DNA of 64,000 nucleotides, taken from the NCBI GenBank assembly GCA_000004985.1, contig GG738857.1; one strand, 5' to 3'. Position numbers and translations under genes: made by a program. The notes under the pieces were generated by a model that was not told where the DNA came from, made no database searches, and saw nothing but the letters and a program-made list of their open reading frames with translations. Source of the DNA: Naegleria gruberi. Taxonomy: Eukaryota. Shown one piece after another: positions 18,829 through 62,574 of the stretch (position 1 is the first letter of the stretch; each line of letters begins with the position of its first letter).

Positions 18829-19993
18829 NNNNNNNNNNNNNNNNNNNNNNNNNNNNNNNNNNNNNNNNNNNNNNNNNNNNNNNNNNNNNNNNNNNNNNNN
18901 NNNNNNNNNNNNNNNNNNNNNNNNNNNNNNNNNNNNNNNNNNNNNNNNNNNNNNNNNNNNNNNNNNNNNNNNNNNNNNNNNNNNNNNNNNNNNNNNNNNN
19001 NNNNNNNNNNNNNNNNNNNNNNNNNNNNNNNNNNNNNNNNNNNNNNNNNNNNNNNNNNNNNNNNNNNNNNNNNNNNNNNNNNNNNNNNNNNNNNNNNNNN
19101 NNNNNNNNNNNNNNNNNNNNNNNNNNNNNNNNNNNNNNNNNNNNNNNNNNNNNNNNNNNNNNNNNNNNNNNNNNNNNNNNNNNNNNNNNNNNNNNNNNNN
19201 NNNNNNNNNNNNNNNNNNNNNNNNNNNNNNNNNNNNNNNNNNNNNNNNNNNNNNNNNNNNNNNNNNNNNNNNNNNNNNNNNNNNNNNNNNNNNNNNNNNN
19301 NNNNNNNNNNNNNNNNNNNNNNNNNNNNNNNNNNNNNNNNNNNNNNNNNNNNNNNNNNNNNNNNNNNNNNNNNNNNNNNNNNNNNNNNNNNNNNNNNNNN
19401 NNNNNNNNNNNNNNNNNNNNNNNNNNNNNNNNNNNNNNNNNNNNNNNNNNNNNNNNNNNNNNNNNNNNNNNNNNNNNNNNNNNNNNNNNNNNNNNNNNNN
19501 NNNNNNNNNNNNNNNNNNNNNNNNNNNNNNNNNNNNNNNNNNNNNNNNNNNNNNNNNNNNNNNNNNNNNNNNNNNNNNNNNNNNNNNNNNNNNNNNNNNN
19601 NNNNNNNNNNNNNNNNNNNNNNNNNNNNNNNNNNNNNNNNNNNNNNNNNNNNNNNNNNNNNNNNNNNNNNNNNNNNNNNNNNNNNNNNNNNNNNNNNNNN
19701 NNNNNNNNNNNNNNNNNNNNNNNNNNNNNNNNNNNNNNNNNNNNNNNNNNNNNNNNNNNNNNNNNNNNNNNNNNNNNNNNNNNNNNNNNNNNNNNNNNNN
19801 NNNNNNNNNNNNNNNNNNNNNNNNNNNNNNNNNNNNNNNNNNNNNNNNNNNNNNNNNNNNNNNNNNNNNNNNNNNNNNNNNNNNNNNNNNNNNNNNNNNN
19901 NNNNNNNNNNNNNNNNNNNNNNNNNNNNNNNNNNNNNNNNNNNNNNNNNNNNNNNNNNNNNNNNNNNNNNNNNNNNNNNNNNNNNNNNNNNNN
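18829..19993. other. Assembly gap (1165 N)
   Basis: n run. Confidence 0.99.
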
Positions 19994-46939: not shown

Positions 46940-49699
46940 TTGGAATCTGTTAAACAAAATGGATATGCATTTAAATATGCCGATGAGTTATTGAAAAAAG
47001 ATGAAGAGTTTATATTGGAAGTTGTTAAACAAGATGGATTGGCAATTAAACATGCTGATTCATCATTACAAAAAGATAGAGAAATTGTATTGGAAGCTGT
47101 TAAACAAAATGTATATGCACTTAAATATGCAGATTCATCATTGAAAAAAGATAGAGAAATTATATTGAAATCTGTTAAGAAAAATGGATTGACACTTGAA
47201 TTTACTGATTCATCATTGAAGAAAGATAGAGAAATTGTATCGGAAGCTGTTAAACAACATGGATTGGCAATTGAGTTTGCTGATTCATCATTTAAAAAAG
47301 ATAGAGAAATTGTATTGGAAGCTGTTAAGCAAAATGTGTATGCAATTGAATTTGCTGATTCATCATTGAAGAAAGATAGACAATTTGTACTAGAAGCTGT
47401 TACGAAAAATGGATTAGTACTTGAATATGCTGATTCATCATTGAAGAAAGATAGAGAATTTGTATTAGAATCTGTTACGAAAAATGGATATGCATTTCAA
47501 TATGCTGTTTCATCATTTAAAAAAGATAGAGAAATTGTATTGGAAGCTGTTAAACAAAATGGAGCAGCGCTTAAATATGCTGATGAATCAGTTAAGGGAG
47601 ACAGAGAAATTGTATTGGAAGCTGTTAAACAAAATGGATTGGCATTTAAATATATTTATTCATCATTGAAAAAAAATAGAGAAATTATATTGGAAGCTGT
47701 TAAACAAAATGGATCAGCACTTAAACATGCTGATTCATTTTTGAAGAAAGATAGAGAAATTGTATCGGAAGCTGTTAAACAAAATGGATTGGCACTTCAG
47801 TTTGCTGATTCATCATTTAAAAAAGATAGAGAAATTGTATTGGAATCTGTTAAAAAAAATGGATCAGCACTTGAATATGCTGATTCATCATTTAAAAAAG
47901 ATAGAGAATTTATTTATTTGCTATTTAAATTGAACAAAGAAAATGCAAGAAACTTCTCACCATCTATATCCAAAACCATTGAAGAATGCTTAAATATTCA
48001 GAGAAAGCTGTCAAGCAATATAACTGAACAATACTCCAAAATATTTATGGATGAAAAGGATTTATATTATGCTATTGAATTAACAAGTCTCTTTAATCCA
48101 ACACCAAAAGGTACAATATTCAATTTCAATTCTATCTATACACCAATATTTATTGAAAAATTGATTATTTTTCAAATATTGAAACAAATGAACCATTCAG
48201 AATTGTCTAATGATATTATTGCTCTTATTGATTTACAAAGTACCAAAGCTAACTATTATTTATATTGTTTCAGATTGGACAAATTTCTTGAAGATAATCC
48301 CTGTCAATCAACAAGAATGAAAGATTTGAAGAATATTGTGGAACAAGTTGCAACAAACTTTGAAACGTCATTTTATACAAAACAGGAAATTAATGAAATT
48401 ATGATTTTTGCCAACAAGTGGTTTGAAAATGAGCAAACATTTGAAAATTACAAACAAATAATTTGTAAATATAATGAGCTGAGAGGAGATTTATCAAAAG
48501 TATTCAAATCTCTTAATTATTTCTATAATTATTTCAAAAATGATTATGATTTCATTTCAGTATTAGGATATGGAGGTGAAGGTGTTGCATTCAAAGTATT
48601 TCATAAAAGTAGTAAATCATTAAGGGCTTTAAAATTGAAATATGACCCAGAGGAATCTGAAGAATCAACAAAAGAAACCATTAATTTATTGAAAAGAACA
48701 GACATTGAAGGAAAGATCAAATGTTTTGATTGTGAAATTATTCAAAATCATTTATATTCAGTGATGGAACTTGGAGAGGAATCATTATCAAATTACATTT
48801 CAAGAAATAATGAAAGTGAAATTTATAGAAATGGATTCATTATTAAGGAAAAACTAATTGAAATTCTTGATATATTTATCAAAGTATTGAACTCAGTTCA
48901 ATCAATTCATGATCACAATATTTTACACAGAGATTTAGATCCTCAAAATATTGTCAAAGTTCAAGATTTATACAAAATTATTGATTTTGAAACATCAAGA
49001 GTGATCAAGACAGGTAATTCAATTACAATTGCTCGTGGAAAGTTTGCATACATGTCTCCTGAAGTTTCACATGATAATTATTCTGATGATTTATTGAAAA
49101 GTGGTAATGATGAAAAGCTTGCTCACAATGTTGGACAAATTACCATTTCATGTGATATATTTTCATTGGGATGTATTTTGTTGAAATTATTAACCAATTG
49201 TCCTTTGCAACTATGTTCAACATTTCTGAATGATTCAGATGTCTCTAAATATAATGATAATTACTTGTATTTTAGTGGACATGGAAAATATTTCTATACA
49301 GTTGTGACAACAACAGAGGGAGAAATGAAATTACATTATGCAATTGAAAAACTAATCAATGAAACAATTAATCCAGATTTAGGAGTGAATAACATATTGA
49401 TTAGAAGCATTATTAGCATGATTCAAAGAGATTCATCAAAAAGATTGGATTGTTATTCTCACAAGTTAACAATTGAGAATATTTTGAAATTTTTGAAAGG
49501 AGAAATCAAAGATATCACTTTCAATATTGAAAAACAAGTTGGAGAATTGAAGAAAATATCACCATTAAGAAGTTACTCTCAACTTGTAGAGGAAAATACC
49601 AAACTATTAGAAAGAATTAAATTATTGGAAGAGAACTCTTTATTGGAACGAATTAAAATGTTGGAAGAGGAAATAATAAATCTAAAAACAGACCAATAA
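46940..49699 (+). CDS. DUF4116-repeat protein with a C-terminal atypical protein kinase domain, copy 1. The long ORF is intact from the TTG at 46940, but no in-frame upstream ATG is available.
   Basis: About 11 tandem 29-aa DUF4116-type repeats (LEAVKQNGLALxYADSSLKKDREIV). The kinase part has GYGGEGVAFKV, HRDLDPQNIV, DFETSR and YMSPEV, followed by a C-terminal coiled coil. Confidence 0.6.
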   Translation: MESVKQNGYAFKYADELLKKDEEFILEVVKQDGLAIKHADSSLQKDREIVLEAVKQNVYALKYADSSLKKDREIILKSVKKNGLTLEFTDSSLKKDREIVSEAVKQHGLAIEFADSSFKKDREIVLEAVKQNVYAIEFADSSLKKDRQFVLEAVTKNGLVLEYADSSLKKDREFVLESVTKNGYAFQYAVSSFKKDREIVLEAVKQNGAALKYADESVKGDREIVLEAVKQNGLAFKYIYSSLKKNREIILEAVKQNGSALKHADSFLKKDREIVSEAVKQNGLALQFADSSFKKDREIVLESVKKNGSALEYADSSFKKDREFIYLLFKLNKENARNFSPSISKTIEECLNIQRKLSSNITEQYSKIFMDEKDLYYAIELTSLFNPTPKGTIFNFNSIYTPIFIEKLIIFQILKQMNHSELSNDIIALIDLQSTKANYYLYCFRLDKFLEDNPCQSTRMKDLKNIVEQVATNFETSFYTKQEINEIMIFANKWFENEQTFENYKQIICKYNELRGDLSKVFKSLNYFYNYFKNDYDFISVLGYGGEGVAFKVFHKSSKSLRALKLKYDPEESEESTKETINLLKRTDIEGKIKCFDCEIIQNHLYSVMELGEESLSNYISRNNESEIYRNGFIIKEKLIEILDIFIKVLNSVQSIHDHNILHRDLDPQNIVKVQDLYKIIDFETSRVIKTGNSITIARGKFAYMSPEVSHDNYSDDLLKSGNDEKLAHNVGQITISCDIFSLGCILLKLLTNCPLQLCSTFLNDSDVSKYNDNYLYFSGHGKYFYTVVTTTEGEMKLHYAIEKLINETINPDLGVNNILIRSIISMIQRDSSKRLDCYSHKLTIENILKFLKGEIKDITFNIEKQVGELKKISPLRSYSQLVEENTKLLERIKLLEENSLLERIKMLEEEIINLKTDQ

Positions 49700-50392: not shown

Positions 50393-51865
50393 ATGCCAAG
50401 TTTCATCAAGAGATTATCGTTACGAAATTCATTTCAACAACGTCAATCCATTCACCAAGATCGTAGAAGAACGATCCGAGCCATTCCCTTCTTTCAAGAT
50501 TTTAAAATTGCCATCATTGGAGATGAATGTGTTGGAAAATCGAATATTGCAATGAGATGTGCTGGAAAGGAGACGTTTGTGCCAGAACATGAACCAACGA
50601 TTGAAGATGAGTATAATTGTAAGGTACAGTTTATGTTTAGGTTGCCAGCACCTTTGGTGGAAGAAATAGTTTCGAATGGTGGTGAAGGAGATTCGAATGA
50701 ATTAATGAGAAGTAATCCCAAAGGTGATATTTATGGATATAAACAATTGGCACATGATTTGGAATTAATACCAATGGAATTGAGAAATTATATGAAATTG
50801 GATAATACTTTGCTATCAATTATTCAACAAAAAAGAGAAAAGGAAGAGGAAATGAAAAAAGCACTTGAGGAGAAACAAAAGAAAATGTTTAGTTTATTCA
50901 AGAAGAAATCAACAACGAGTGATTCTCCACAAAAATCTTCTCATGAGCATGCTGGAAATAATCAATCAGGAGAGGATGGAGATTTTGGAAGAGTAATCAC
51001 TGAGGAAGAGGACATTGATGATTATGTGGATGAATTACTTTCGGATGTGGTTTATAATTTCGAGCAGGACATTATTTGTAGAGTGACCATTGTGGATACG
51101 AGTGGGAGATCGGAAGTGAGAAAGGAAGCAACTGATTTGTCTTCAGTGGATGGATACATGTTGGTTTTTGATATGAATAATAAGGCATCATTTGCCAAGA
51201 TTCAGAATTATATTGATGAGTGTAAATTTGCCTACTATGAAAATCCTGCAAGGAAACATTCGGATGCAGCTGCTTCACACAGTTCGAGTAGTGCTCGATT
51301 GTCCTCTGCAAGTAATAATAGTTCAGCAACAATGAATTCAACCTCCTCAGCAAGTGCTGCCTCTTCCAATGTAAATAGTTCTAAACCATCGACAATTGAT
51401 AATCCTCCAATGGTCCTTATAATGAGTAAATGCGATCAGAAACCATCAGCCCTCAAGACCATTAATGCAGAGTATGGCTATGCTCTTGGAGATACTCATC
51501 ATTTTCCATTCTTTGTCACTAGTGCATGTGAAAATTTGAATATCCAAGAAGCATTAGAAGGTCTCCTGAGTGAAATTATCAAGAAGAACATTGAGGAAGG
51601 AGTTTACGAAACTCAAAACAAATCAATGCCAACACCACTACCATCTGCTGATGAAACTTTAAGCAAGACCAATAGTAGAAACTTTAAATTTGAGAATCAA
51701 AATATCAGTATCAGTAGCAATGCCAGTGATTACACTCCTGAATTGTTAACGTTCAGTGTTGGAAATGGAGTTGTTCCACAGAGTCCTCCTGAGAAGAAGA
51801 TTGTTCGTCAGAGTGTCTCTGCAACTCTGAGAAAGTATGTCGTTCAACAATTTAAAAAGAAATAA
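50393..51865 (+). CDS. Highly divergent Ras-like GTPase of 490 aa with two large insertions and non-canonical catalytic residues
   Basis: KIAIIGDECVGKSNIAMRCAGKETFVPEHEPTIEDEYNCKVQF aligns with Ras residues 5-45. A roughly 150-aa insertion follows. Then CRVTIVDTSGRSE (DTAGQ replaced by DTSGR), a roughly 60-aa Ser-rich insertion, PMVLIMSKCDQ (NKCD replaced by SKCD) and TSAC. Confidence 0.6.
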   Translation: MPSFIKRLSLRNSFQQRQSIHQDRRRTIRAIPFFQDFKIAIIGDECVGKSNIAMRCAGKETFVPEHEPTIEDEYNCKVQFMFRLPAPLVEEIVSNGGEGDSNELMRSNPKGDIYGYKQLAHDLELIPMELRNYMKLDNTLLSIIQQKREKEEEMKKALEEKQKKMFSLFKKKSTTSDSPQKSSHEHAGNNQSGEDGDFGRVITEEEDIDDYVDELLSDVVYNFEQDIICRVTIVDTSGRSEVRKEATDLSSVDGYMLVFDMNNKASFAKIQNYIDECKFAYYENPARKHSDAAASHSSSSARLSSASNNSSATMNSTSSASAASSNVNSSKPSTIDNPPMVLIMSKCDQKPSALKTINAEYGYALGDTHHFPFFVTSACENLNIQEALEGLLSEIIKKNIEEGVYETQNKSMPTPLPSADETLSKTNSRNFKFENQNISISSNASDYTPELLTFSVGNGVVPQSPPEKKIVRQSVSATLRKYVVQQFKKK

Positions 51866-53513: not shown

Positions 53514-56500
53514 ATGACAAAACTTGTTTCTTGCCTTGCCACGGCCATCAAACTCGGAGTGGTGAGCACGTTTGTGTGCTCTTTTGTTTTGTTTCATATT
53601 TATTTCTTTTTGGAGAGATCTCCACCAGCTAATACAAAGCATTTTGATGATATGAATACTAATCCTTTAAATTTTGCTGATTTGAATTTATTTTCCATTC
53701 ATGATGAGAGTAGTATTGTGAAGGAAGGTTCATCGTCATCACCCGGAAAGAATAGAAGAAGACTTGTTCAACCAAAGAGCTTGAGAAAAATTGCTCTTGA
53801 TGAAATCGGAACTGTAAATTCAACCAAAGTTGTGAATGATGGTATGTAATATTTGTACAATAATTTTCAATTAATAATTAATAATTAACAATAATATAAT
53901 ATACAATGCAATATTCATCAATGAATAACAATAATTTTGGAATACTTGGAAAAATCTTCATCATGTGGATTAACAACAGATGACGAAAAAACATATTATA
54001 CTATTTTCCAAATTCATGGAACTCCTGGATCTAGACGATGGAGGTATCCAGTTGATCATCACTTTGTGAGGACTTTCGGAGGAGACAAAAAGTTGAGAAT
54101 TCTCAGTCTTGATAGACCTGGTATTGGTCAATCTACTCCAATAATATCTAGTATTGACTCGGAAGGTAATCCTGTCTATAATTTGGAACCTTTCAATGTG
54201 GATTATTATGAAGCTAGTGCTTTGGACCTTTTATATGTTGTGAGAAAGTTGAGATTAAAGCACTTTTCACTCTTTGCTTATTCTCAAGGTGCTGCTCATG
54301 CTACAATGCTTTCACACTATTTGGAACAATTAAAGAAGAGAGAACGTGGTGAAAAGGTAACTCATGCTCACTTGAAGAGCACTGAAAGATTCCACAATGA
54401 CTTGATGACCAAGATTTTATTGTCAAAGGATTCCGAAAAGTATTGGACTTTTGAAAATGGAGTTTCAAACTATACATCATCTACTGAATGGTCATGGAAA
54501 GATGTTACCATCGACAGAGTTGTCTTGATGGCACCACAAGGTTTCTATTCAGAAAAGGTCAGACAAGCTCTCTTGAAAGAGCAAGACATGACCATTCCTG
54601 AGCACAAGAGATGGTCTTCAAACCTTCATCAAATTTATTCTTTCCACAATTATCAACCACCACTCGGAACTAATATTGTTCATGCTGTATACAAGATGGT
54701 TTCACAATTGGGATTTATCACTAATATCAAATATTGGGAAGAAAATATGAAATTCATGCTTGATCCTTTGGGAAGAGATTCATTCATTTTCCATGATGAA
54801 GCTACTGGATGGAAGAAGGCTTTTAACAATACCATGATTGATACCTACAGATTTACTACCATGACTTTCCTTGTAGAAGTTTATAATAGTTATTATTTCA
54901 CTGAAAATTATGGACCTAACTTTGATATTTCCTTGAAGAATATTCCAACATGGATTTTGAAAGCTGAGGATGATATTCTTGTTCCAATTGAAGCTTTTAA
55001 TACCTTTGTTGAAAAGGTTTGCACCAATAAGGAAACTTGTAATGTCACTGTTGCTTCCAACACTACCCATTTCCAAATTTTCAAGAATTATTACACACAA
55101 TCTATTCAACACCTTGTGAAGGGAGTTTTTGGAGAAAGTGTCAGCCTTAGAAAGCCAAGAAGAAAGATTATTGTTATTGGTAGTGGTCTTGCTGGCTTGA
55201 CAGCTACTCTCGAATCTGCCTACACCTACGATCAAGATGTCGTTCTCATTGAAAAGGAACCTAGACTTGGAGGAAACAGTGCCAAGGCAACCAGTGGTAT
55301 GAATGCTATCCAAACAACAACACAAAGAAACGTTCTCGTCTTTGATTCATATACTCACTTTTGGAATGATACTATCAAGTCTTTCACAGGAGGAAAGGTC
55401 TTGTCTACCCTCAAGGAAGCTAGAAGAATCATTAGAAATCCAAAGAATAAGAAGAAGGTTGAAGGAGAGGAAAATTTAATTACAGAAAATTCTTGGAGAA
55501 TTTTGGAAACTCTTGTCAAGGATTCCAAGCCAGCCCTCCAATTCTTACAATCATTTGATGTGAAAATGGATGTTGTTTCCCAATGTGGAGGCCACTCAAA
55601 GCCAAGAACTCACAGAAGCATTAACAAGAGTGACAAACCAATTAACATTGGAAGTGATATTATTTCCAAGCTCTCTGCTTTTATTAGAGAAAAATTGGCT
55701 GAGCGTGTTGTCATCAAGACTGAACATCATGCCATTCAATTAATTTCTGAAGAAAATGATCTTGGAGAAACCATTGTCAAGGGTGTCAAGGTTTTGAACA
55801 TTAAGGAAAATACTACTGAAACAATTATGGGAGATTCTATCATTTTGGCAGCTGGTGGTTATGGTCAAGATAGAGATGGTTATTTGAAGCAATTCGCTCC
55901 ACACTCTGTCAATTTACCATCAACTAATGGTTTGTGGGCAACAGGTGATGGTATAAAGATGGCTGTCAGAGATGTAAACGCATCCTTGATTGATATGGGA
56001 GAAATTCAAATTCACCCTACTGCCTTTGTTGATCCAGCCAATCCTACTGCAATGACATTAATTCTCGCTCCAGAATCATTGAGAGGTTATGGTGCTATTA
56101 TTGTCAATCAAGAGGGTAAGAGATTTGTCAATGAATTGGGTACAAGAGATGAAGTCAGTGATGCCATCTTTGAAAATTGTGGAAGGAAGGAAATTATCCT
56201 CACGTTACTGCCTACATGATTATGAATGAATTTGTTATGAAATCATTTGGTGAAAGCTTGACCTCCTTCTATGCCAAGAAGGGTCTCATTCGTAAATATG
56301 AAAACTTTGAAGATTTGTGTCAAAAGGAAGAATTGAACATGTCTGCCAACTTTTGTGCCAACCTCGAAGATACCATTATTGATTATGATTATTCAGTCGA
56401 TTATAGAAGATCAGATCCTAACTATAAGGATTCATTTGGAAAGACAGTTTTCCCATCTAAATTCAATTTGGAAAAGAGTAAGGAAACTACTCCATTCTTT

Positions 56501-56731
56501 GTGGCAAGAATTACACCTGCTGTTCACTACACTCAAGGTGGTCTCTTATTCAACAATAAGGCACAAGTTTTGCGTAGAAAGACTCAAGATACAAACGAAG
56601 TAATTAGAAATCTCTATGCTGCCGGTGAAGTCACTGGTGGATGTCATGGTAAGAATCGTTTGGCAGGTAACAGCTTGTTAGAATGTGTAGTTTTTGGTCG
56701 TATTGCTGCCTCAGAAGCTGCCCAAGAATAA
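53514..56731 (+). CDS. Fusion of an alpha/beta-hydrolase-like domain with a soluble FAD-dependent fumarate reductase (flavocytochrome/OSM1-type). There is a possible 5' signal-anchor exon at 53514-53841 and an apparent frameshift near 56175-56200.
   Basis: Hydrolase part: HGTPGSRRW...[13 protein letters not shown]...[13 protein letters not shown] part: [17 protein letters not shown]...[15 protein letters not shown] ... [34 protein letters not shown]. ORFs 53937-56219 (frame 0) and 56177-56731 (frame 2) overlap within the ggaaggaaggaaatt run. Confidence 0.6.
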
Positions 56732-56812: not shown

Positions 56813-57749
56813 CTAACACACGACAATTGAAATCAAGATCATTCCAAGAAACATTGCAATAGACACCAATGAAGAATCAAATAGTCCACTAGTTCCACTG
56901 CTGATATTCCTCGTAACAAACGAACCATACTTGTACGTTTCTCCAAACAATCGAATGGCACAATGTGTACAATTCTGCTTGTTATTATTCAACCAATAAA
57001 TCAAATCAATTGCATCAGCTATTATTCCCTCAACTGTTCCATCCATCACTTCCTGGAATATGCCATCATAATTCTCCTTATAAATAATGGATGCATTTGG
57101 AAAGGTGGCTTGACCCAAAGCAACAAAATAAGATCCCTTCAGAACTGTAAATGCTGGTGAAGGAGCTTTTTGTAAATCTTGAATTGAGGAATAGTTTAAG
57201 GCATGTGCCTTATTCGAAAGTAAAACTCCAGTGGAAGAACTTCCATATCCACAATTAAAATTAACTTTTCGTGCTCTTTCCTGTGAATAAATTGTATTAC
57301 TCGTGACAACATCACACAATCCACTGTCGACTGCTCTTGTCAATGTGTCAAAATATCCCAAAATGGAAGTATTAATAATGATATGATTGGCTTTCAATTT
57401 GGCATCTGGATATTTGGAATTTAAAGTGGAAACTAGTAAGTCACCTGCTTGTTTATAGAAATTTCTCCAGACATCTGTTGGTTCTTCATAACAAATGTTT
57501 AGTTTAGTTTTGGTTGTTGGAAAGGGATTCGAATTGGGATAAGAAGTTGTTCTTTCGACACAAGAAGGGACTTGGAAGGCTACTCACGACATCTGACATT
57601 GCTTTATCAATTGCTTGATAAATGTCATTCGACATGTATTGAGTTTCGGATAATGAGGGAGTAATATAGTCTGCAGAAACTCGGGGAGAAGTGAGTAGTA
57701 CAATAAATGTAAAGCAATAAAACATCAACGACAAGCAAAATAGTTTCAT
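56813..57749 (-). CDS. Secreted bacterial-type solute-binding-protein family 3 (periplasmic-binding-protein type II) domain protein with a hydrophobic C-terminal tail. It has at least 2 exons, and the intron boundaries are unresolved.
   Basis: Exon 1 is ORF 57504-57749, with signal peptide MKLFCLSLMFYCFTFIVLLTSPRVSA. The downstream frame is open from about 57540 to 56813 (...YKQAGDLLVSTLNSKYPDAKLKANHIIINTSILGYFDTLTRAVDSGLCDVVTSNTIYSQERARKVNFNCGYGSSSTGVLLSNK) and matches the SBP_bac_3 pattern. The two frames differ, so an intron or frameshift must lie near 57520-57560. Confidence 0.5.
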
Positions 57750-59872: not shown

Positions 59873-61305
59873 ATGTCTGAAGATTGGGTTTGTGTTTTGT
59901 GATGCGATTTTATTAATGGGGGTGTGATGACTATCACAAATAATAGGCCGATAGGACATATGTGTTAGAAGCTGTTAAACAACGTGGAAATGCACTTAAA
60001 TATGCCGATGAAGCATTTAAAAAAGATAGAGAAATTGTATTGGAGGCTGTTAAAAAAAACGGATTAATAATTCAATATGCTGATTCATCATTGAAAAGAG
60101 ATAGAGAAATTGTATTGGAAGCTGTTAAACAGCGTGGATATGCAATTCAATATGCTGATTCATTGTTAAAGAAAGATAGAGAAATTGTATTGGAATGTGT
60201 TAAACAAGATGGATTGGCACTTGAATATGTTGATTTATCATTACAAAAAGATAGAGAAATTGTGTTGGCAGCTGTTAAACAAAATGGATTGGCACTTCGA
60301 TATGCTGATTCATCATTGAAAAAAGATAGAGAAATTGCATTGGAATCTGTTAAACAACGTGGATATGCAATTCAATATGCTGATTCGTTGTTAAAGAAAG
60401 ATAGAGAAATTGTATTGGAAGCAGTTAAACAAGATGGATTGGCACTGCAATATGCTTATTTTCAAAATGACAGAGAAATTGTATTGGAAGCTGTTAAGCA
60501 AAATGGATCAGCAGTTGAATACGCTGATTCATCATTGAAAAAAGATAGAGAATTTATATTGGAATCTGTTAAACAACATGGATTGACTCTTAAATATGCT
60601 GATTCATTATTGAAGAAAGATAGAGAAGTTGTTTCGGAAGCTGTTAAACAAGATATATTGGCACTTAAATATGTTGATTCATCATTTAAAAGAGATAGAG
60701 AATTTATATTGGAAGCAGTTAAACAACATTCATTGGCACTTGAATATGCTGATTCATCTTTACAAAGAGATATCGTTTTTACTTATTCACTTTTTAAATT
60801 GAACAAAGAAAATGCAAGAAAGTTCTCACCCTCTATAACCAAAACCATTGAAGAATCCATTAATCTTCAGAGAAAGCTGTCAAGCAATATAATTGAACAA
60901 TACTCCAAAATATTTATGGATGAAAAGGATTTATATTATGCTATTGAATTAACAAGTCTCTTTAATCCAACACCAAAAGGTACAATATTCAATTTCAATT
61001 CTATCTATACACCAATATTTATTGAAAAATTGATTATTTTTCAAATATTGAAACAAATGAACCATTCAGAATTGTCTAATGATATTATTGCTCTTATTGA
61101 TTTACAAAGTACCAAAGCTAACTATTATTTATATTGTTTCAGATTGGACAAATTTCTTGAAGATAATCCCTGTCAATCAACAAGAATGAAAGATTTGAAG
61201 AATATTGTGGAACAAGTTGCAACAAACTTTGAAACGTCATTTTATACAAAACAGGAAATTAATGAAATTATGATTTTTGCCAACAAGTGGTTTGAAAATG
61301 AGTAA
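59873..61305 (+). CDS. DUF4116-repeat + kinase gene, copy 2. Mini-exon 1 (59873-59887, MSEDW), an intron at 59888-59946, and a repeat exon from 59947. The reading frame ends at an in-frame TAA at 61303-61305, where copy 1 has CAA.
   Basis: Donor GTTTGT and acceptor AATAATAG, phase 0. About 10 DUF4116-type repeats. The downstream sequence stays collinear with copy 1 beyond the TAA. Confidence 0.55.
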
Positions 61306-62574
61306 ACATTTGAAAATTACAAACAAATAATTTGTAAATATAACGAGCTGAGAGGAGATTTATCAAAAGTATTCAAATCTCTCAATTATTTCTATAATTA
61401 TTTCAAAAATGATTATGATTTCATTTCAGTATTAGGATATGGAGGTGAAGGTGTTGCATTCAAAGTATTTCATAAAAGTAGTAAATCATTAAGGGCATTA
61501 AAATTAAAATATGACCCAGAGGAATCTGAAGAATCAACAAAAGAAACCATTAATTTATTGAACAGAACAGACATTGAAGGAAAGATCAAATGTTTTGATT
61601 GTGAAATTATTCAAAATCATTTATATTCAGTGATGGAACTTGGAGAGGAATCATTATCAAATTACATTTCAAGAAATAATGAAAGTGAAATTTATAGAAA
61701 TGGATTCATTAAGAAGGAAAAGTTGATTGAAATTCTTGAAATATTTATCAAAGTATTGAACTCAGTTCAATCAATTCATGATCACAATATTTTACACAGA
61801 GATTTAGATCCTCAAAATATTGTCAAAGTTCAAGATTTATACAAAATTATTGATTTTGAAACATCAAGAGTTATCAAGACAGGTAATTCAATTACAATAG
61901 CTCGTGGAAAGTTTGCATACATGTCTCCTGAAGTTTCACATGATAATTATTCTGATGATTTATTGAAAAGTGGTGATGATGAAAAACTTGCTCACAATGT
62001 TGGACAAATTACCATTTCATGTGATATATTTTCATTGGGATGTATTTTATTGAAATTATTAACAAATTGTCCATTACAACTATGTTCAACATTTGTTAAT
62101 GATTCAGATGTCTCAAAATATAATGACAAGTATCCATATTTTAGTGGTCATGGAAAATATTTCTATACAGTTGTAACAACAACAGAGGGAGAAATGAAAT
62201 TACATTATGCAATTGAAAAACTAATCAATGAAACGATTAATCCAGATTTAGGAGTGAATAACATATTAATTAGAAGCATTATTAGCATGATTCAAAGAGA
62301 TTCATCAAAAAGATTGGATTGTTATTCTCACAAGTTAACAATTGAGAATATTTTGAAATTTTTGAAAGGTGAAATCAAAGATATCACTTTGAATATTGAA
62401 AAACAAGTTGGAGAATTGAAGAAAATCTCACCATTAAGAAGTTACTCTCAACTTGCTGAAGAAAATAACAAAATTACAGATGAAAAAACCAAACTTTCGG
62501 ATGAAAATAGCAACCTGTTAGAAAGAATTAAAATGTTGGAAGAGGAAATAAGAAAACTCACACAAACCATATGA
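61306..62574 (+). CDS. Kinase-domain portion of copy 2, in frame with and downstream of the TAA. It is either a separated ORF, the tail of a pseudogene, or part of a readthrough product.
   Basis: Near-identical to copy 1 at 48430-49650 (GYGGEGVAFKV, HRDLDPQNIV, DFETSR). The C-terminal coiled coil differs (LAEENNKITDEKTKLSDENSNLLERIKMLEEEIRKLTQTI). Confidence 0.5.
   Translation, partial: TFENYKQIICKYNELRGDLSKVFKSLNYFYNYFKNDYDFISVLGYGGEGVAFKVFHKSSKSLRALKLKYDPEESEESTKETINLLNRTDIEGKIKCFDCEIIQNHLYSVMELGEESLSNYISRNNESEIYRNGFIKKEKLIEILEIFIKVLNSVQSIHDHNILHRDLDPQNIVKVQDLYKIIDFETSRVIKTGNSITIARGKFAYMSPEVSHDNYSDDLLKSGDDEKLAHNVGQITISCDIFSLGCILLKLLTNCPLQLCSTFVNDSDVSKYNDKYPYFSGHGKYFYTVVTTTEGEMKLHYAIEKLINETINPDLGVNNILIRSIISMIQRDSSKRLDCYSHKLTIENILKFLKGEIKDITLNIEKQVGELKKISPLRSYSQLAEENNKITDEKTKLSDENSNLLERIKMLEEEIRKLTQTI

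What the first reader, a model, noticed from the sequence alone, without database searches (positions are those of the whole stretch)
53514..56731. Alpha/beta-hydrolase domain fused to a soluble FAD-dependent fumarate reductase, with an in-gene frameshift in a GGAAGGAAGG run
A 760-aa ORF joins an N-terminal alpha/beta-hydrolase-like domain (HGTPGSRRW..., nucleophile-elbow-like AYSQGA) to a flavocytochrome/OSM1-type fumarate-reductase FAD domain (GSGLAGLTA...[13 protein letters not shown]). The FAD domain's conserved C-terminus ([29 protein letters not shown]) is only reached after a -1 frame change located within ggaaggaaggaaatt at about 56175-56200. The frame change is either a sequencing or assembly indel or a real frameshift. 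The hydrolase-FRD fusion architecture is unusual.
Basis: partly seen in the sequence, partly recalled or inferred. Interest (0 to 1): 0.5.

Follow-up and report, generated by a model that had tools for sequence, protein, structure and literature searches.

The report
Naegleria hydrolase–fumarate reductase, one base missing
This is a real Naegleria gruberi gene for a membrane-anchored protein that joins an alpha/beta-hydrolase domain to a yeast-Osm1-like fumarate reductase; its apparent frameshift is one missing A, which the public gene model hides with a false 32-base intron.

Summary
The window is Naegleria gruberi nuclear DNA.

**Gene structure**
- Exon 1 is 53514-53841.
- A 138-nt GT..AG intron follows.
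- Exon 2 runs from 53980 to 56731.

**Protein**
- An N-terminal membrane helix.
- An alpha/beta-hydrolase-fold domain.
- A soluble fumarate reductase. It is closest to yeast Osm1 and keeps all six catalytic residues.

**Frame break**
- N. lovaniensis and an N. fowleri-type contig read TGT GGA AA(G/A) GAG here. The window reads TGT GGA AG GAA.
- So one A is missing from the run at 56183-56184.
- The GenBank protein (1015 aa) is reproduced exactly by removing 32 nt (56154-56185). That "intron" deletes 11 conserved residues just after the catalytic arginine, so it is an annotation artefact.
- There is no slippery heptamer, and the orthologues have no shift. Programmed frameshifting is therefore rejected.
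- No independent N. gruberi sequence was available, so I could not decide between an error in the draft assembly (my preference) and a recent or allelic mutation.

**Fusion**
- It is genuine and conserved in Naegleria, Willaertia and one uncultured eukaryote.
- The hydrolase domain was found nowhere else among 1.84 billion representative proteins.
- Its function is untested.

The parts
53514..53841 (+). Exon 1: start codon, N-terminal hydrophobic helix (aa ~7-33) and low-complexity linker (aa 1-109 plus the first base of codon 110).
   Evidence: ORF. The best Kyte-Doolittle 19-residue segment scores 2.01 at aa 15-33. AlphaFold models a helix at aa 2-35. The motif FLE(R/Y)SP.ANT.H after the helix is conserved in all family members.
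53842..53979 (+). Spliceosomal intron of 138 nt, GTATGT...TTAACAACAG, with a length divisible by 3.
   Evidence: Sequence. The spliced translation is open and aligns with N. lovaniensis P0002 across the junction.
53982..55136 (+). Alpha/beta-hydrolase-fold domain (aa 111-495). It has the motif HGTPGSRRW, the nucleophile elbow A-Y-S211-Q-G, D440/D441, H473, a helical lid of ~190 aa, and an invariant Cys457/Cys463 pair.
55137..56183 (+). Fumarate reductase FAD domain, the part read in frame 0 (aa 496-844). It carries GSGLAG, H788, E808, R811 and the catalytic R832.
   Evidence: Pfam FAD_binding_2 E 1.1e-45. Alignment to Osm1 5GLG.
56183..56184 (+). Frame-break site. The assembly has an A-run of 2 (GGA AG) where the orthologues have GGA AAG or GGA AAA, so one A is missing from the Lys845 codon.
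   Evidence: DNA and protein comparison with L001 and L002. Osm1 has C-P-K at the same place.
56154..56185 (+). The 32-nt GT..AG 'intron' of the public gene model. I judge it an artefact that bypasses the frame break. It removes aa 835-845 ([11 protein letters not shown]).
   Evidence: Deleting exactly these 32 nt reproduces P0001 residue for residue. The stretch encodes residues conserved in the orthologues, Osm1 and Fcc3.
56186..56731 (+). Fumarate reductase C-terminal part, read in the -1 frame (aa 846-1026, stop at 56729-56731). It carries H959 and R1003.
   Evidence: Pfam FAD_binding_2 positions 354-414, E 5.2e-16. It is 79% and 77% identical to N. lovaniensis and N. fowleri, no lower than the upstream part.

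Best explanation
One N. gruberi gene of two exons encodes a protein of about 1026 aa. Its parts are an N-terminal membrane-anchor helix, a linker, an alpha/beta-hydrolase-fold domain, and an Osm1-type FAD-dependent soluble fumarate reductase with no heme, ApbE or cytochrome-b5-reductase domain.

The reading frame in this assembly is broken only because one A of the Lys845 codon is absent (GGA AAG has become GGA AG at 56183-56184). This is not an intron and not a programmed frameshift. I judge it most likely a base-calling or consensus error in a draft scaffold. In that case the organism makes the full-length protein reading ...[13 protein letters not shown]....

Inferred mechanism: the C-terminal domain reduces fumarate to succinate at a non-covalently bound FAD, using the conserved His/Glu/Arg/Arg/His/Arg set. 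As in Osm1, electrons would come from free reduced flavin or a partner flavoprotein, because no electron-input domain is present. The protein is tethered to a membrane. The hydrolase domain is a lineage-specific accessory module. In Naegleria it keeps a Ser/Asp/His triad and may be an active esterase or thioesterase. In the relatives the triad is lost, so its shared role is more likely structural or in binding.

Shown here: gene structure, domain identities, conserved residues, the position of the missing base, and the taxonomic distribution. Inferred: the cause of the missing base, the substrate, the electron donor, the membrane and its topology, and any hydrolase activity.
For: - Identity: the GenBank N. 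gruberi protein P0001 is 99% identical to my repaired product and is reproduced exactly from the window.
- Missing base: both orthologous loci read TGT GGA AA(G/A) GAG in one frame. The window's two frames match them up to Gly844 and from Lys845 onward.
- No decay: the downstream 181 codons have no stop and are 79% and 77% identical to the orthologues, against 76% and 74% for the upstream reductase part.
- Active site: Osm1's six essential residues (PMC6242907) align to H788, E808, R811, R832, H959 and R1003. The last two lie beyond the break, so a truncated product would be inactive.
- Draft quality: the window holds an N-gap of ~1165 bases.
- Against the intron: the 32-nt stretch encodes 8 of 10 residues identical to the orthologues plus the conserved Lys. 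It also lies in a helix modelled at aa 832-843, directly after the catalytic Arg.
- Against programmed shifting: there is no X_XXY_YYZ heptamer in 56160-56220, and the orthologues are unshifted.
- Fusion is real: both domains lie in one uninterrupted 760-aa ORF. The same architecture occurs in N. lovaniensis, N. fowleri, three Willaertia magna paralogues, and a metagenome eukaryote whose contig also carries an IBR E3-ligase gene.
- Hydrolase fold.
Against: - No reads, ESTs or second N. gruberi assembly could be examined. Ten possible product forms were absent from the 15-billion-protein collection. The error-versus-real question therefore rests on priors.
- N. gruberi behaves as a strict aerobe in culture (PMC6205838). 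A fumarate reductase could thus be dispensable in the laboratory strain, which makes a real recent inactivation plausible.
- The structure models have low confidence (mean pLDDT 51 and 57), so the triad geometry and the domain interface are unknown.
- The hydrolase nucleophile is not conserved outside Naegleria, which weakens any claim of hydrolase activity.
- Two aromatic residues of Osm1's second-flavin pocket are replaced here (W295 to T, F297 to I; my reading of the alignment, numbered as in PMC6242907). The Osm1-style electron route is therefore uncertain.
Confidence: 0.6

Rival explanations
1. The one-base deletion is real in strain NEG-M, either on all copies (a very young pseudogene) or on one haplotype of a polyploid, heterozygous genome. 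The locus as sequenced would then yield an 855-aa product lacking H959 and R1003, which is inactive as a reductase.
For: The sequence as given carries the shift. N. gruberi shows no anaerobic energy metabolism in culture (PMC6205838), so selection on this gene may be weak in a long-cultured axenic strain. Short purine repeats such as GGAAGGAAGG can slip during replication (general knowledge).
Against: There is no second lesion anywhere in 1026 codons, and the downstream part is at least as conserved as the upstream part. Any real lesion must therefore be very recent. The scaffold is draft quality. The annotators' pipeline bypassed the shift rather than calling a pseudogene, which is uninformative either way.
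Confidence: 0.32
2. The 32-nt GT..AG stretch 56154-56185 is a genuine very short spliceosomal intron, as in the public gene model. The true protein would then be the 1015-aa form.
For: It has GT and AG ends, and its removal restores the frame. Gene predictions in Naegleria include introns down to about 30 nt (PMC8296547, methods).
Against: - The stretch is translated in frame in both orthologues. It encodes [10 protein letters not shown] against their VSDSIFEHCG, and it also aligns to Osm1 and Fcc3.
- Removing it deletes the helix that follows the catalytic Arg832.
- It has no GTAAGT/GTATGT-type donor, no TTAAC-like branch site and no pyrimidine tract, unlike the gene's real 138-nt intron.
- The average N. 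gruberi intron is 203 nt (PMC8296547).
- Homology-based gene callers are known to insert tiny introns at frameshifts (my own knowledge).
Confidence: 0.04
3. Programmed -1 ribosomal frameshifting, or transcriptional slippage, at the GGAAGGAAGG run produces the full-length protein from the shifted gene.
For: The shift is -1 and lies in a short repeat. The downstream frame is intact.
Against: No X_XXY_YYZ slippery heptamer lies in frame in 56160-56220. The A-run is only 2 bases, too short for polymerase slippage. The orthologues encode the same residues in a single frame, so no conserved recoding signal exists.
Confidence: 0.02

Closest known systems
Yeast soluble fumarate reductases Osm1/Frd1 (PDB 5GLG, 6KU6)
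   Same: It is the best solved relative (E 2.5e-83) and the top Foldseek hit. It shares the FAD_binding_2 fold without a heme domain. All six catalytic residues are conserved: H281/E301/R304/R326/H435/R477 align to H788/E808/R811/R832/H959/R1003. Osm1 is also targeted to and associated with membranes (ER and mitochondria; PMC6242907, PMC5638582).
   Different: The Naegleria protein has an extra N-terminal part of ~500 aa (membrane helix, linker, alpha/beta-hydrolase domain). It has an insert of ~30 aa that the Osm1 alignment skips, at about aa 585-615. The second-flavin pocket is only partly kept: K76, L298, F362 and Y363 are retained, while S78 becomes T, W295 becomes T and F297 becomes I (my reading).
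Shewanella flavocytochrome c3 fumarate reductase (Fcc3; PDB 1QJD, 1QO8, 1D4C)
   Same: It has the same flavoprotein and clamp domains and the same catalytic residues (E about 1e-50).
   Different: Fcc3 receives electrons through an N-terminal tetraheme cytochrome domain. Here that position is occupied by an alpha/beta-hydrolase domain with no recognisable redox cofactor site.
Trypanosomatid NADH-dependent fumarate reductase (FRDg/FRDm1), the name attached to the GenBank entry
   Same: The central fumarate reductase domain is of the same family.
   Different: By general knowledge, the trypanosomatid enzymes carry an N-terminal ApbE-like domain and a C-terminal cytochrome-b5-reductase (NADH-binding) domain. 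Pfam finds neither here. 'NADH-dependent' is therefore an unsupported transfer of a name.
Lid-bearing alpha/beta hydrolases of the Abhydrolase_1/6 type (e.g. PhaZ 8YNV, ABHD6 7OTS, monoacylglycerol lipase, type II thioesterases, haloperoxidases) and the non-catalytic NDRG2 (2XMQ)
   Different: Identity is only 9-19%, so no subfamily can be assigned. The lid is much larger. The triad is complete only in Naegleria. In Willaertia and the metagenome relative the nucleophile is Gln or Gly, as in pseudo-hydrolases such as NDRG2.

Membership tests
Osm1/Fcc3-type soluble fumarate reductase (FAD_binding_2) | N-terminal Rossmann FAD-binding motif GxGxxG and a full-length FAD_binding_2 domain | tested here: met
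   GSGLAG is present. Pfam FAD_binding_2 covers profile positions 2-309 (E 1.1e-45) and 354-414 (E 5.2e-16) across the two frames.
Osm1/Fcc3-type soluble fumarate reductase (FAD_binding_2) | Six residues essential for fumarate binding and catalysis (Osm1 H281, E301, R304, R326, H435, R477; PMC6242907) | tested here: met
   They align to H788, E808, R811, R832, H959 and R1003. All six are also kept in N. lovaniensis, N. fowleri and P0006. R832 and H959 are lost in Willaertia.
Osm1/Fcc3-type soluble fumarate reductase (FAD_binding_2) | Fumarate reduction activity with non-covalent FAD | not testable with these tools
   This needs recombinant protein and an anaerobic assay.
Trypanosomatid NADH-dependent fumarate reductase | ApbE-like N-terminal domain and a C-terminal cytochrome-b5-reductase/NADH-binding domain | tested here: not met
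   Pfam finds only Abhydrolase and FAD-type families. The protein ends 9 residues after the reductase motif ...ECVVFGR (R1017).
Alpha/beta-hydrolase fold | Core beta-sheet/helix topology | tested here: met
Alpha/beta-hydrolase fold | Catalytic triad: nucleophile in a Sm-x-Nu-x-Sm elbow after strand 5, acid after strand 7, His after strand 8 | tested here: inconclusive
   N. gruberi, N. lovaniensis and N. fowleri have A-(Y/F)-S-Q-G, DD and H directly after the predicted strands 204-210, 433-438 and 463-468. Willaertia has Q at the nucleophile position, no aligned Asp, and N at the His position. P0006 has G, D and H at these three positions. The geometry was not checked.
Programmed -1 ribosomal frameshift site | Slippery heptamer X_XXY_YYZ in the zero frame, and conservation of the shift in relatives | tested here: not met
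   There is no heptamer in 56160-56220. The orthologues are in one frame.
Spliceosomal intron (the annotated 32-nt intron 56154-56185) | GT..AG ends, non-coding content, and removal from the mRNA | tested here: inconclusive
   GT..AG ends are present. However, the content is conserved coding sequence in the orthologues, Osm1 and Fcc3. Removal from the mRNA cannot be tested here.

The most novel reading that the evidence does not exclude
The hydrolase domain is not a passive appendage. It has replaced the heme, ApbE or OYE electron-input modules of other soluble fumarate reductases as a functional partner. One possibility is a docking or substrate-delivery module that couples the membrane-anchored reductase to another flavoenzyme, for example Ero1-type oxidative folding under hypoxia as shown for Osm1. 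Another is a second catalytic site, making a bifunctional (thio)esterase-enoate reductase unique to heterolobosean amoebae, including the pathogen N. fowleri.
Probability: 0.15. Interest if true: 0.6.

Novelty: new variant of a known kind. Interest (0 to 1): 0.35.

Why it matters
**Annotation.** The reference protein for this gene (1015 aa) lacks 11 conserved residues next to the catalytic arginine, because a gene caller bypassed a one-base gap with a false intron. Its 'NADH-dependent' label is also unsupported. Both points affect anyone who uses this entry for metabolic reconstruction of Naegleria.

**Biology.** Soluble fumarate reductases are known with heme, ApbE/cytochrome-b5-reductase or FMN/OYE partner domains, or with no partner at all as in Osm1. 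A membrane-anchored form with an orphan alpha/beta-hydrolase domain is a further architecture. It is conserved in Naegleria, including N. fowleri, and in Willaertia. It bears on the open question of why these aerobic amoebae keep 'anaerobic' enzymes. Its function is untested, so for now it is a lead and not a discovery.

Tried and rejected
1. **Profile search with the N-domain alignment A3, and a single-sequence search with the P0006 N-domain** (search for homologous proteins). Both returned no hit at all, not even the query's own family. I treat this as a limit of the word index, not as evidence. The exhaustive phmmer run is the result I rely on.
2. **Exact look-up of ten possible N. gruberi product forms** (repaired, truncated, unspliced, alternative starts), **and of P0001**. 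None is on record, so no independent N. gruberi sequence could be used to test the missing base.
3. **Full-length AlphaFold model from 8 sequences**. Mean pLDDT was 51, too poor to read a domain interface or triad geometry. The N-domain model (pLDDT 57, pTM 0.62) was used only for fold class.
4. **The afdb50 fold library** was not available.
5. **Programmed frameshifting** is rejected: no slippery site and no conservation.
6. **A real 32-nt intron** is judged very unlikely.
7. **N-glycosylation sequons as a hint of lumenal topology.** There are ten N-x-S/T sites in 1026 aa. By my rough estimate that is about what composition predicts, so I drew no inference.
8. **Conserved synteny with Old Yellow Enzyme genes.** It is seen in N. 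lovaniensis and the N. fowleri-type contig but not within 10 kb in this window. I did not use it as functional evidence.
9. **Literature searches** for Naegleria or Willaertia fumarate reductase found no description of this fusion. The 2010 genome paper is not held.
Full report
**1. What is in the sequence**

The window has about 33% G+C and spliceosomal introns. A search with the repaired product returned the GenBank protein 'NADH-dependent fumarate reductase [Naegleria gruberi]' (P0001, 1015 aa) at 99% identity. The window is therefore N. gruberi nuclear DNA. An N-run of about 1165 bases at ~18829-19993 shows it is a draft scaffold.

On the + strand there are three ORFs:
- a 111-aa ORF, 53514-53849
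- a 760-aa ORF, 53937-56219
- a 184-aa ORF, 56177-56731, one frame back

Pfam places Abhydrolase_1 at the N-terminus of the 760-aa ORF (28.2 bits, cut-off 25.8). It places FAD_binding_2 profile positions 2-309 in the rest of that ORF (E 1.1e-45). Profile positions 354-414 fall in the 184-aa ORF (E 5.2e-16).

**2. Gene structure**

Exon 1 ends at 53841, before GTATGT. The next AG that keeps the frame is at 53978-53979, preceded by TTAACAACAG. This gives an intron of 138 nt, a length divisible by 3. The spliced product (...VVND|[14 protein letters not shown]...) aligns with the N. lovaniensis protein across the junction.

**3. The frame break**

N. lovaniensis (P0002, 1038 aa) and a protein from a Logan assembly (P0003) both read ...[17 protein letters not shown](A/S)PYPHVTAY... 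in one frame. P0003's 90% cluster contains N. fowleri XP_044564755.1.

The DNA at the site reads as follows:

| Locus | Sequence |
|---|---|
| N. fowleri-type contig (L001) | TGT GGA AAG GAG |
| N. lovaniensis (L002) | TGT GGA AAA GAG |
| Window | TGT GGA AG GAA GGA AAT |

Frame 0 of the window matches the orthologues through Cys-Gly (GGA at 56181-56183). The -1 frame matches them from Lys-Glu (AAG at 56183-56185). One A is therefore missing from the run at 56183-56184. Yeast Osm1 has Cys-Pro-Lys at the same position.

Adding one A gives a 1026-aa protein with no other defect. The 181 codons after the break are 79% and 77% identical to N. lovaniensis and N. fowleri. The upstream reductase part is 76% and 74% identical. 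There is no sign of decay.

**4. The public gene model**

Deleting exactly 56154-56185 (GTCAGT...GGAAG, 32 nt) from exon 2 reproduces P0001 residue for residue. That 'intron' removes [11 protein letters not shown]. These residues are translated and conserved in the orthologues, where 8 of 10 are identical and the Lys is also kept. They also align to Osm1 and to Shewanella Fcc3. They sit in a helix modelled at aa 832-843, directly after the catalytic Arg832.

The stretch lacks the donor, branch-site and pyrimidine features of the gene's real intron. The average N. gruberi intron is 203 nt (PMC8296547). I conclude that the intron is an artefact of a gene caller stepping over a frameshift. That homology-based callers behave this way is my own knowledge.

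**5. Other readings of the break**

Programmed -1 frameshifting is rejected. No X_XXY_YYZ heptamer lies in frame in 56160-56220, and the orthologues need no shift.

I could not settle whether the missing A is an assembly error or a real lesion. None of ten possible product forms, nor P0001 itself, could be traced to any other N. gruberi data.

I favour an error at about 0.6, for three reasons:
- The scaffold is draft quality.
- The lesion is a single base in a short purine repeat.
- The rest of the gene is flawless.

A real recent or allele-specific mutation remains plausible at about 0.3. N. gruberi shows no anaerobic energy metabolism in culture (PMC6205838), so the gene may be dispensable there.

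**6. The reductase domain**

The best solved relative is yeast Osm1 (5GLG, E 2.5e-83). Shewanella flavocytochromes c3 follow at about 1e-50, and urocanate reductase at 9e-41. Foldseek with the full-length model gives the same order.

The six residues shown by mutagenesis to be essential in Osm1 are H281, E301, R304, R326, H435 and R477 (PMC6242907). They align to H788, E808, R811, R832, H959 and R1003. H959 and R1003 lie beyond the break, so the truncated 855-aa product would be inactive.

No heme, FMN_bind, ApbE, OYE or cytochrome-b5-reductase domain is present. 'NADH-dependent' is therefore unsupported.

From my reading of the alignment, Osm1's second-flavin pocket is only partly conserved:
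- retained: K76, L298, F362, Y363
- replaced: S78 to T, W295 to T, F297 to I

**7. The N-terminal domain**

Pfam Abhydrolase_1 is above threshold for the three Naegleria sequences. The predicted secondary structure has the canonical order:
- Ser211 in A-Y-S-Q-G follows strand 204-210 and precedes a helix.
- Asp440/441 follow strand 433-438.
- His473 follows strand 463-468.
- A helical lid of ~190 aa lies in between.

**8. Distribution of the fusion**

An exhaustive phmmer search of 1.84 billion representative proteins with the N-domain gave only four hits at E <= 0.001:

| Hit | Source | Note |
|---|---|---|
| P0001 | N. gruberi | the protein itself |
| P0005 | Willaertia magna | three paralogues, 1164-1183 aa |
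| P0006 | JGI metagenome | 936 aa |
| P0007 | not identified (1483 aa) | unrelated fibronectin-repeat protein |

(Sources.)

The true relatives (P0005 and P0006) both carry the same C-terminal FAD_binding_2 domain. In the alignment these proteins also carry an N-terminal hydrophobic helix followed by a conserved FLE(R/Y)SP.ANT.H motif, except the Willaertia paralogue P0005, whose predicted N-terminus lacks the helix. The metagenome contig also carries an IBR/RBR E3-ligase gene and has 36% G+C, so its source is a eukaryote.

The fusion is thus real, old enough to be shared by Naegleria and Willaertia, and apparently confined to this small group.

The hydrolase triad is complete only in Naegleria. 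The table gives the residue at each triad position:

| Lineage | Nucleophile | Acid | His |
|---|---|---|---|
| Naegleria | S | D | H |
| Willaertia | Q | none aligned | N |
| Metagenome protein | G | D | H |

- Willaertia has also lost the reductase's R832 and H959 equivalents.
- The metagenome protein keeps all reductase residues.
- An invariant Cys457/Cys463 pair is present in all members.

**9. How it most likely works (inference)**

The protein is a membrane-tethered Osm1-like fumarate reductase. With no built-in electron-input domain, it probably oxidises free reduced flavin or a partner flavoprotein, as shown for Osm1 with Ero1 and Erv1 (PMC6242907, PMC5638582).

The shared role of the hydrolase-fold domain is probably structural or in binding. 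In Naegleria it may additionally be an active serine hydrolase. The membrane, the topology, the donor and any hydrolase substrate are all unknown.

**10. Verdict**

- The frameshift itself is mundane: one missing A, most likely a reference error, masked by a false intron.
- The architecture is a genuine, conserved, uncharacterised variant of soluble fumarate reductase. It is of moderate interest.

Noticed in passing
window ~18829-19993: A run of about 1165 N (a scaffold gap). It explains the apparent 13.9% G+C in the composition profile and shows that the window comes from a draft assembly.
   Followed up: yes
window 46940-49699 (+); 59962-61305 and 61558-62574 (+): There are two paralogous genes with DUF4116 repeats followed by a protein-kinase domain. 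The first is a single 919-aa ORF. In the second, the repeat part and the kinase part are in the same frame and appear separated only by one TAA at 61303-61305. That TAA overlaps a GTAAAC that could start a short intron. Otherwise it is an in-frame stop, meaning a pseudogene or an error (hand reading).
   Followed up: partly
L001 4080-6586 and L002 9370-11959, versus window 50393-51865: In N. lovaniensis and the N. fowleri-type contig, the fusion gene is followed by a Ras/Roc GTPase gene, Old Yellow Enzyme (Oxidored_FMN) gene(s) and a DUF938 gene. In the N. gruberi window a Ras/Roc gene lies upstream instead, and no OYE gene was found among the ORFs of at least 120 aa scanned within about 10 kb. 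OYE domains are the NADH-input module of some bacterial fumarate reductases (my own knowledge). The adjacency in two species may be worth a look, but it is not conserved here.
   Followed up: partly
P0005, P0008, P0009 (Willaertia magna): The three Willaertia paralogues of the fusion have lost the hydrolase nucleophile and His. They have also lost the reductase's catalytic Arg and one substrate-binding His. They carry long low-complexity inserts. They look like pseudo-enzymes retained in triplicate.
   Followed up: partly
window 56813-57397 (-) and 57504-57749 (-): The 194-aa ORF immediately downstream has a weak match to bacterial solute-binding protein family 3 (E 1.2e-4, below the Pfam cut-off) and a hydrophobic C-terminus. 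The next ORF upstream of it on the minus strand begins with a signal-peptide-like segment. These may be two exons of one secreted or membrane protein.
   Followed up: no
GenBank/UniProt entry for P0001: The product name 'NADH-dependent fumarate reductase' is not supported by the domain content, which has no NADH-binding, ApbE or cytochrome-b5-reductase domain. The deposited sequence also lacks 11 residues because of the false intron.
   Followed up: yes
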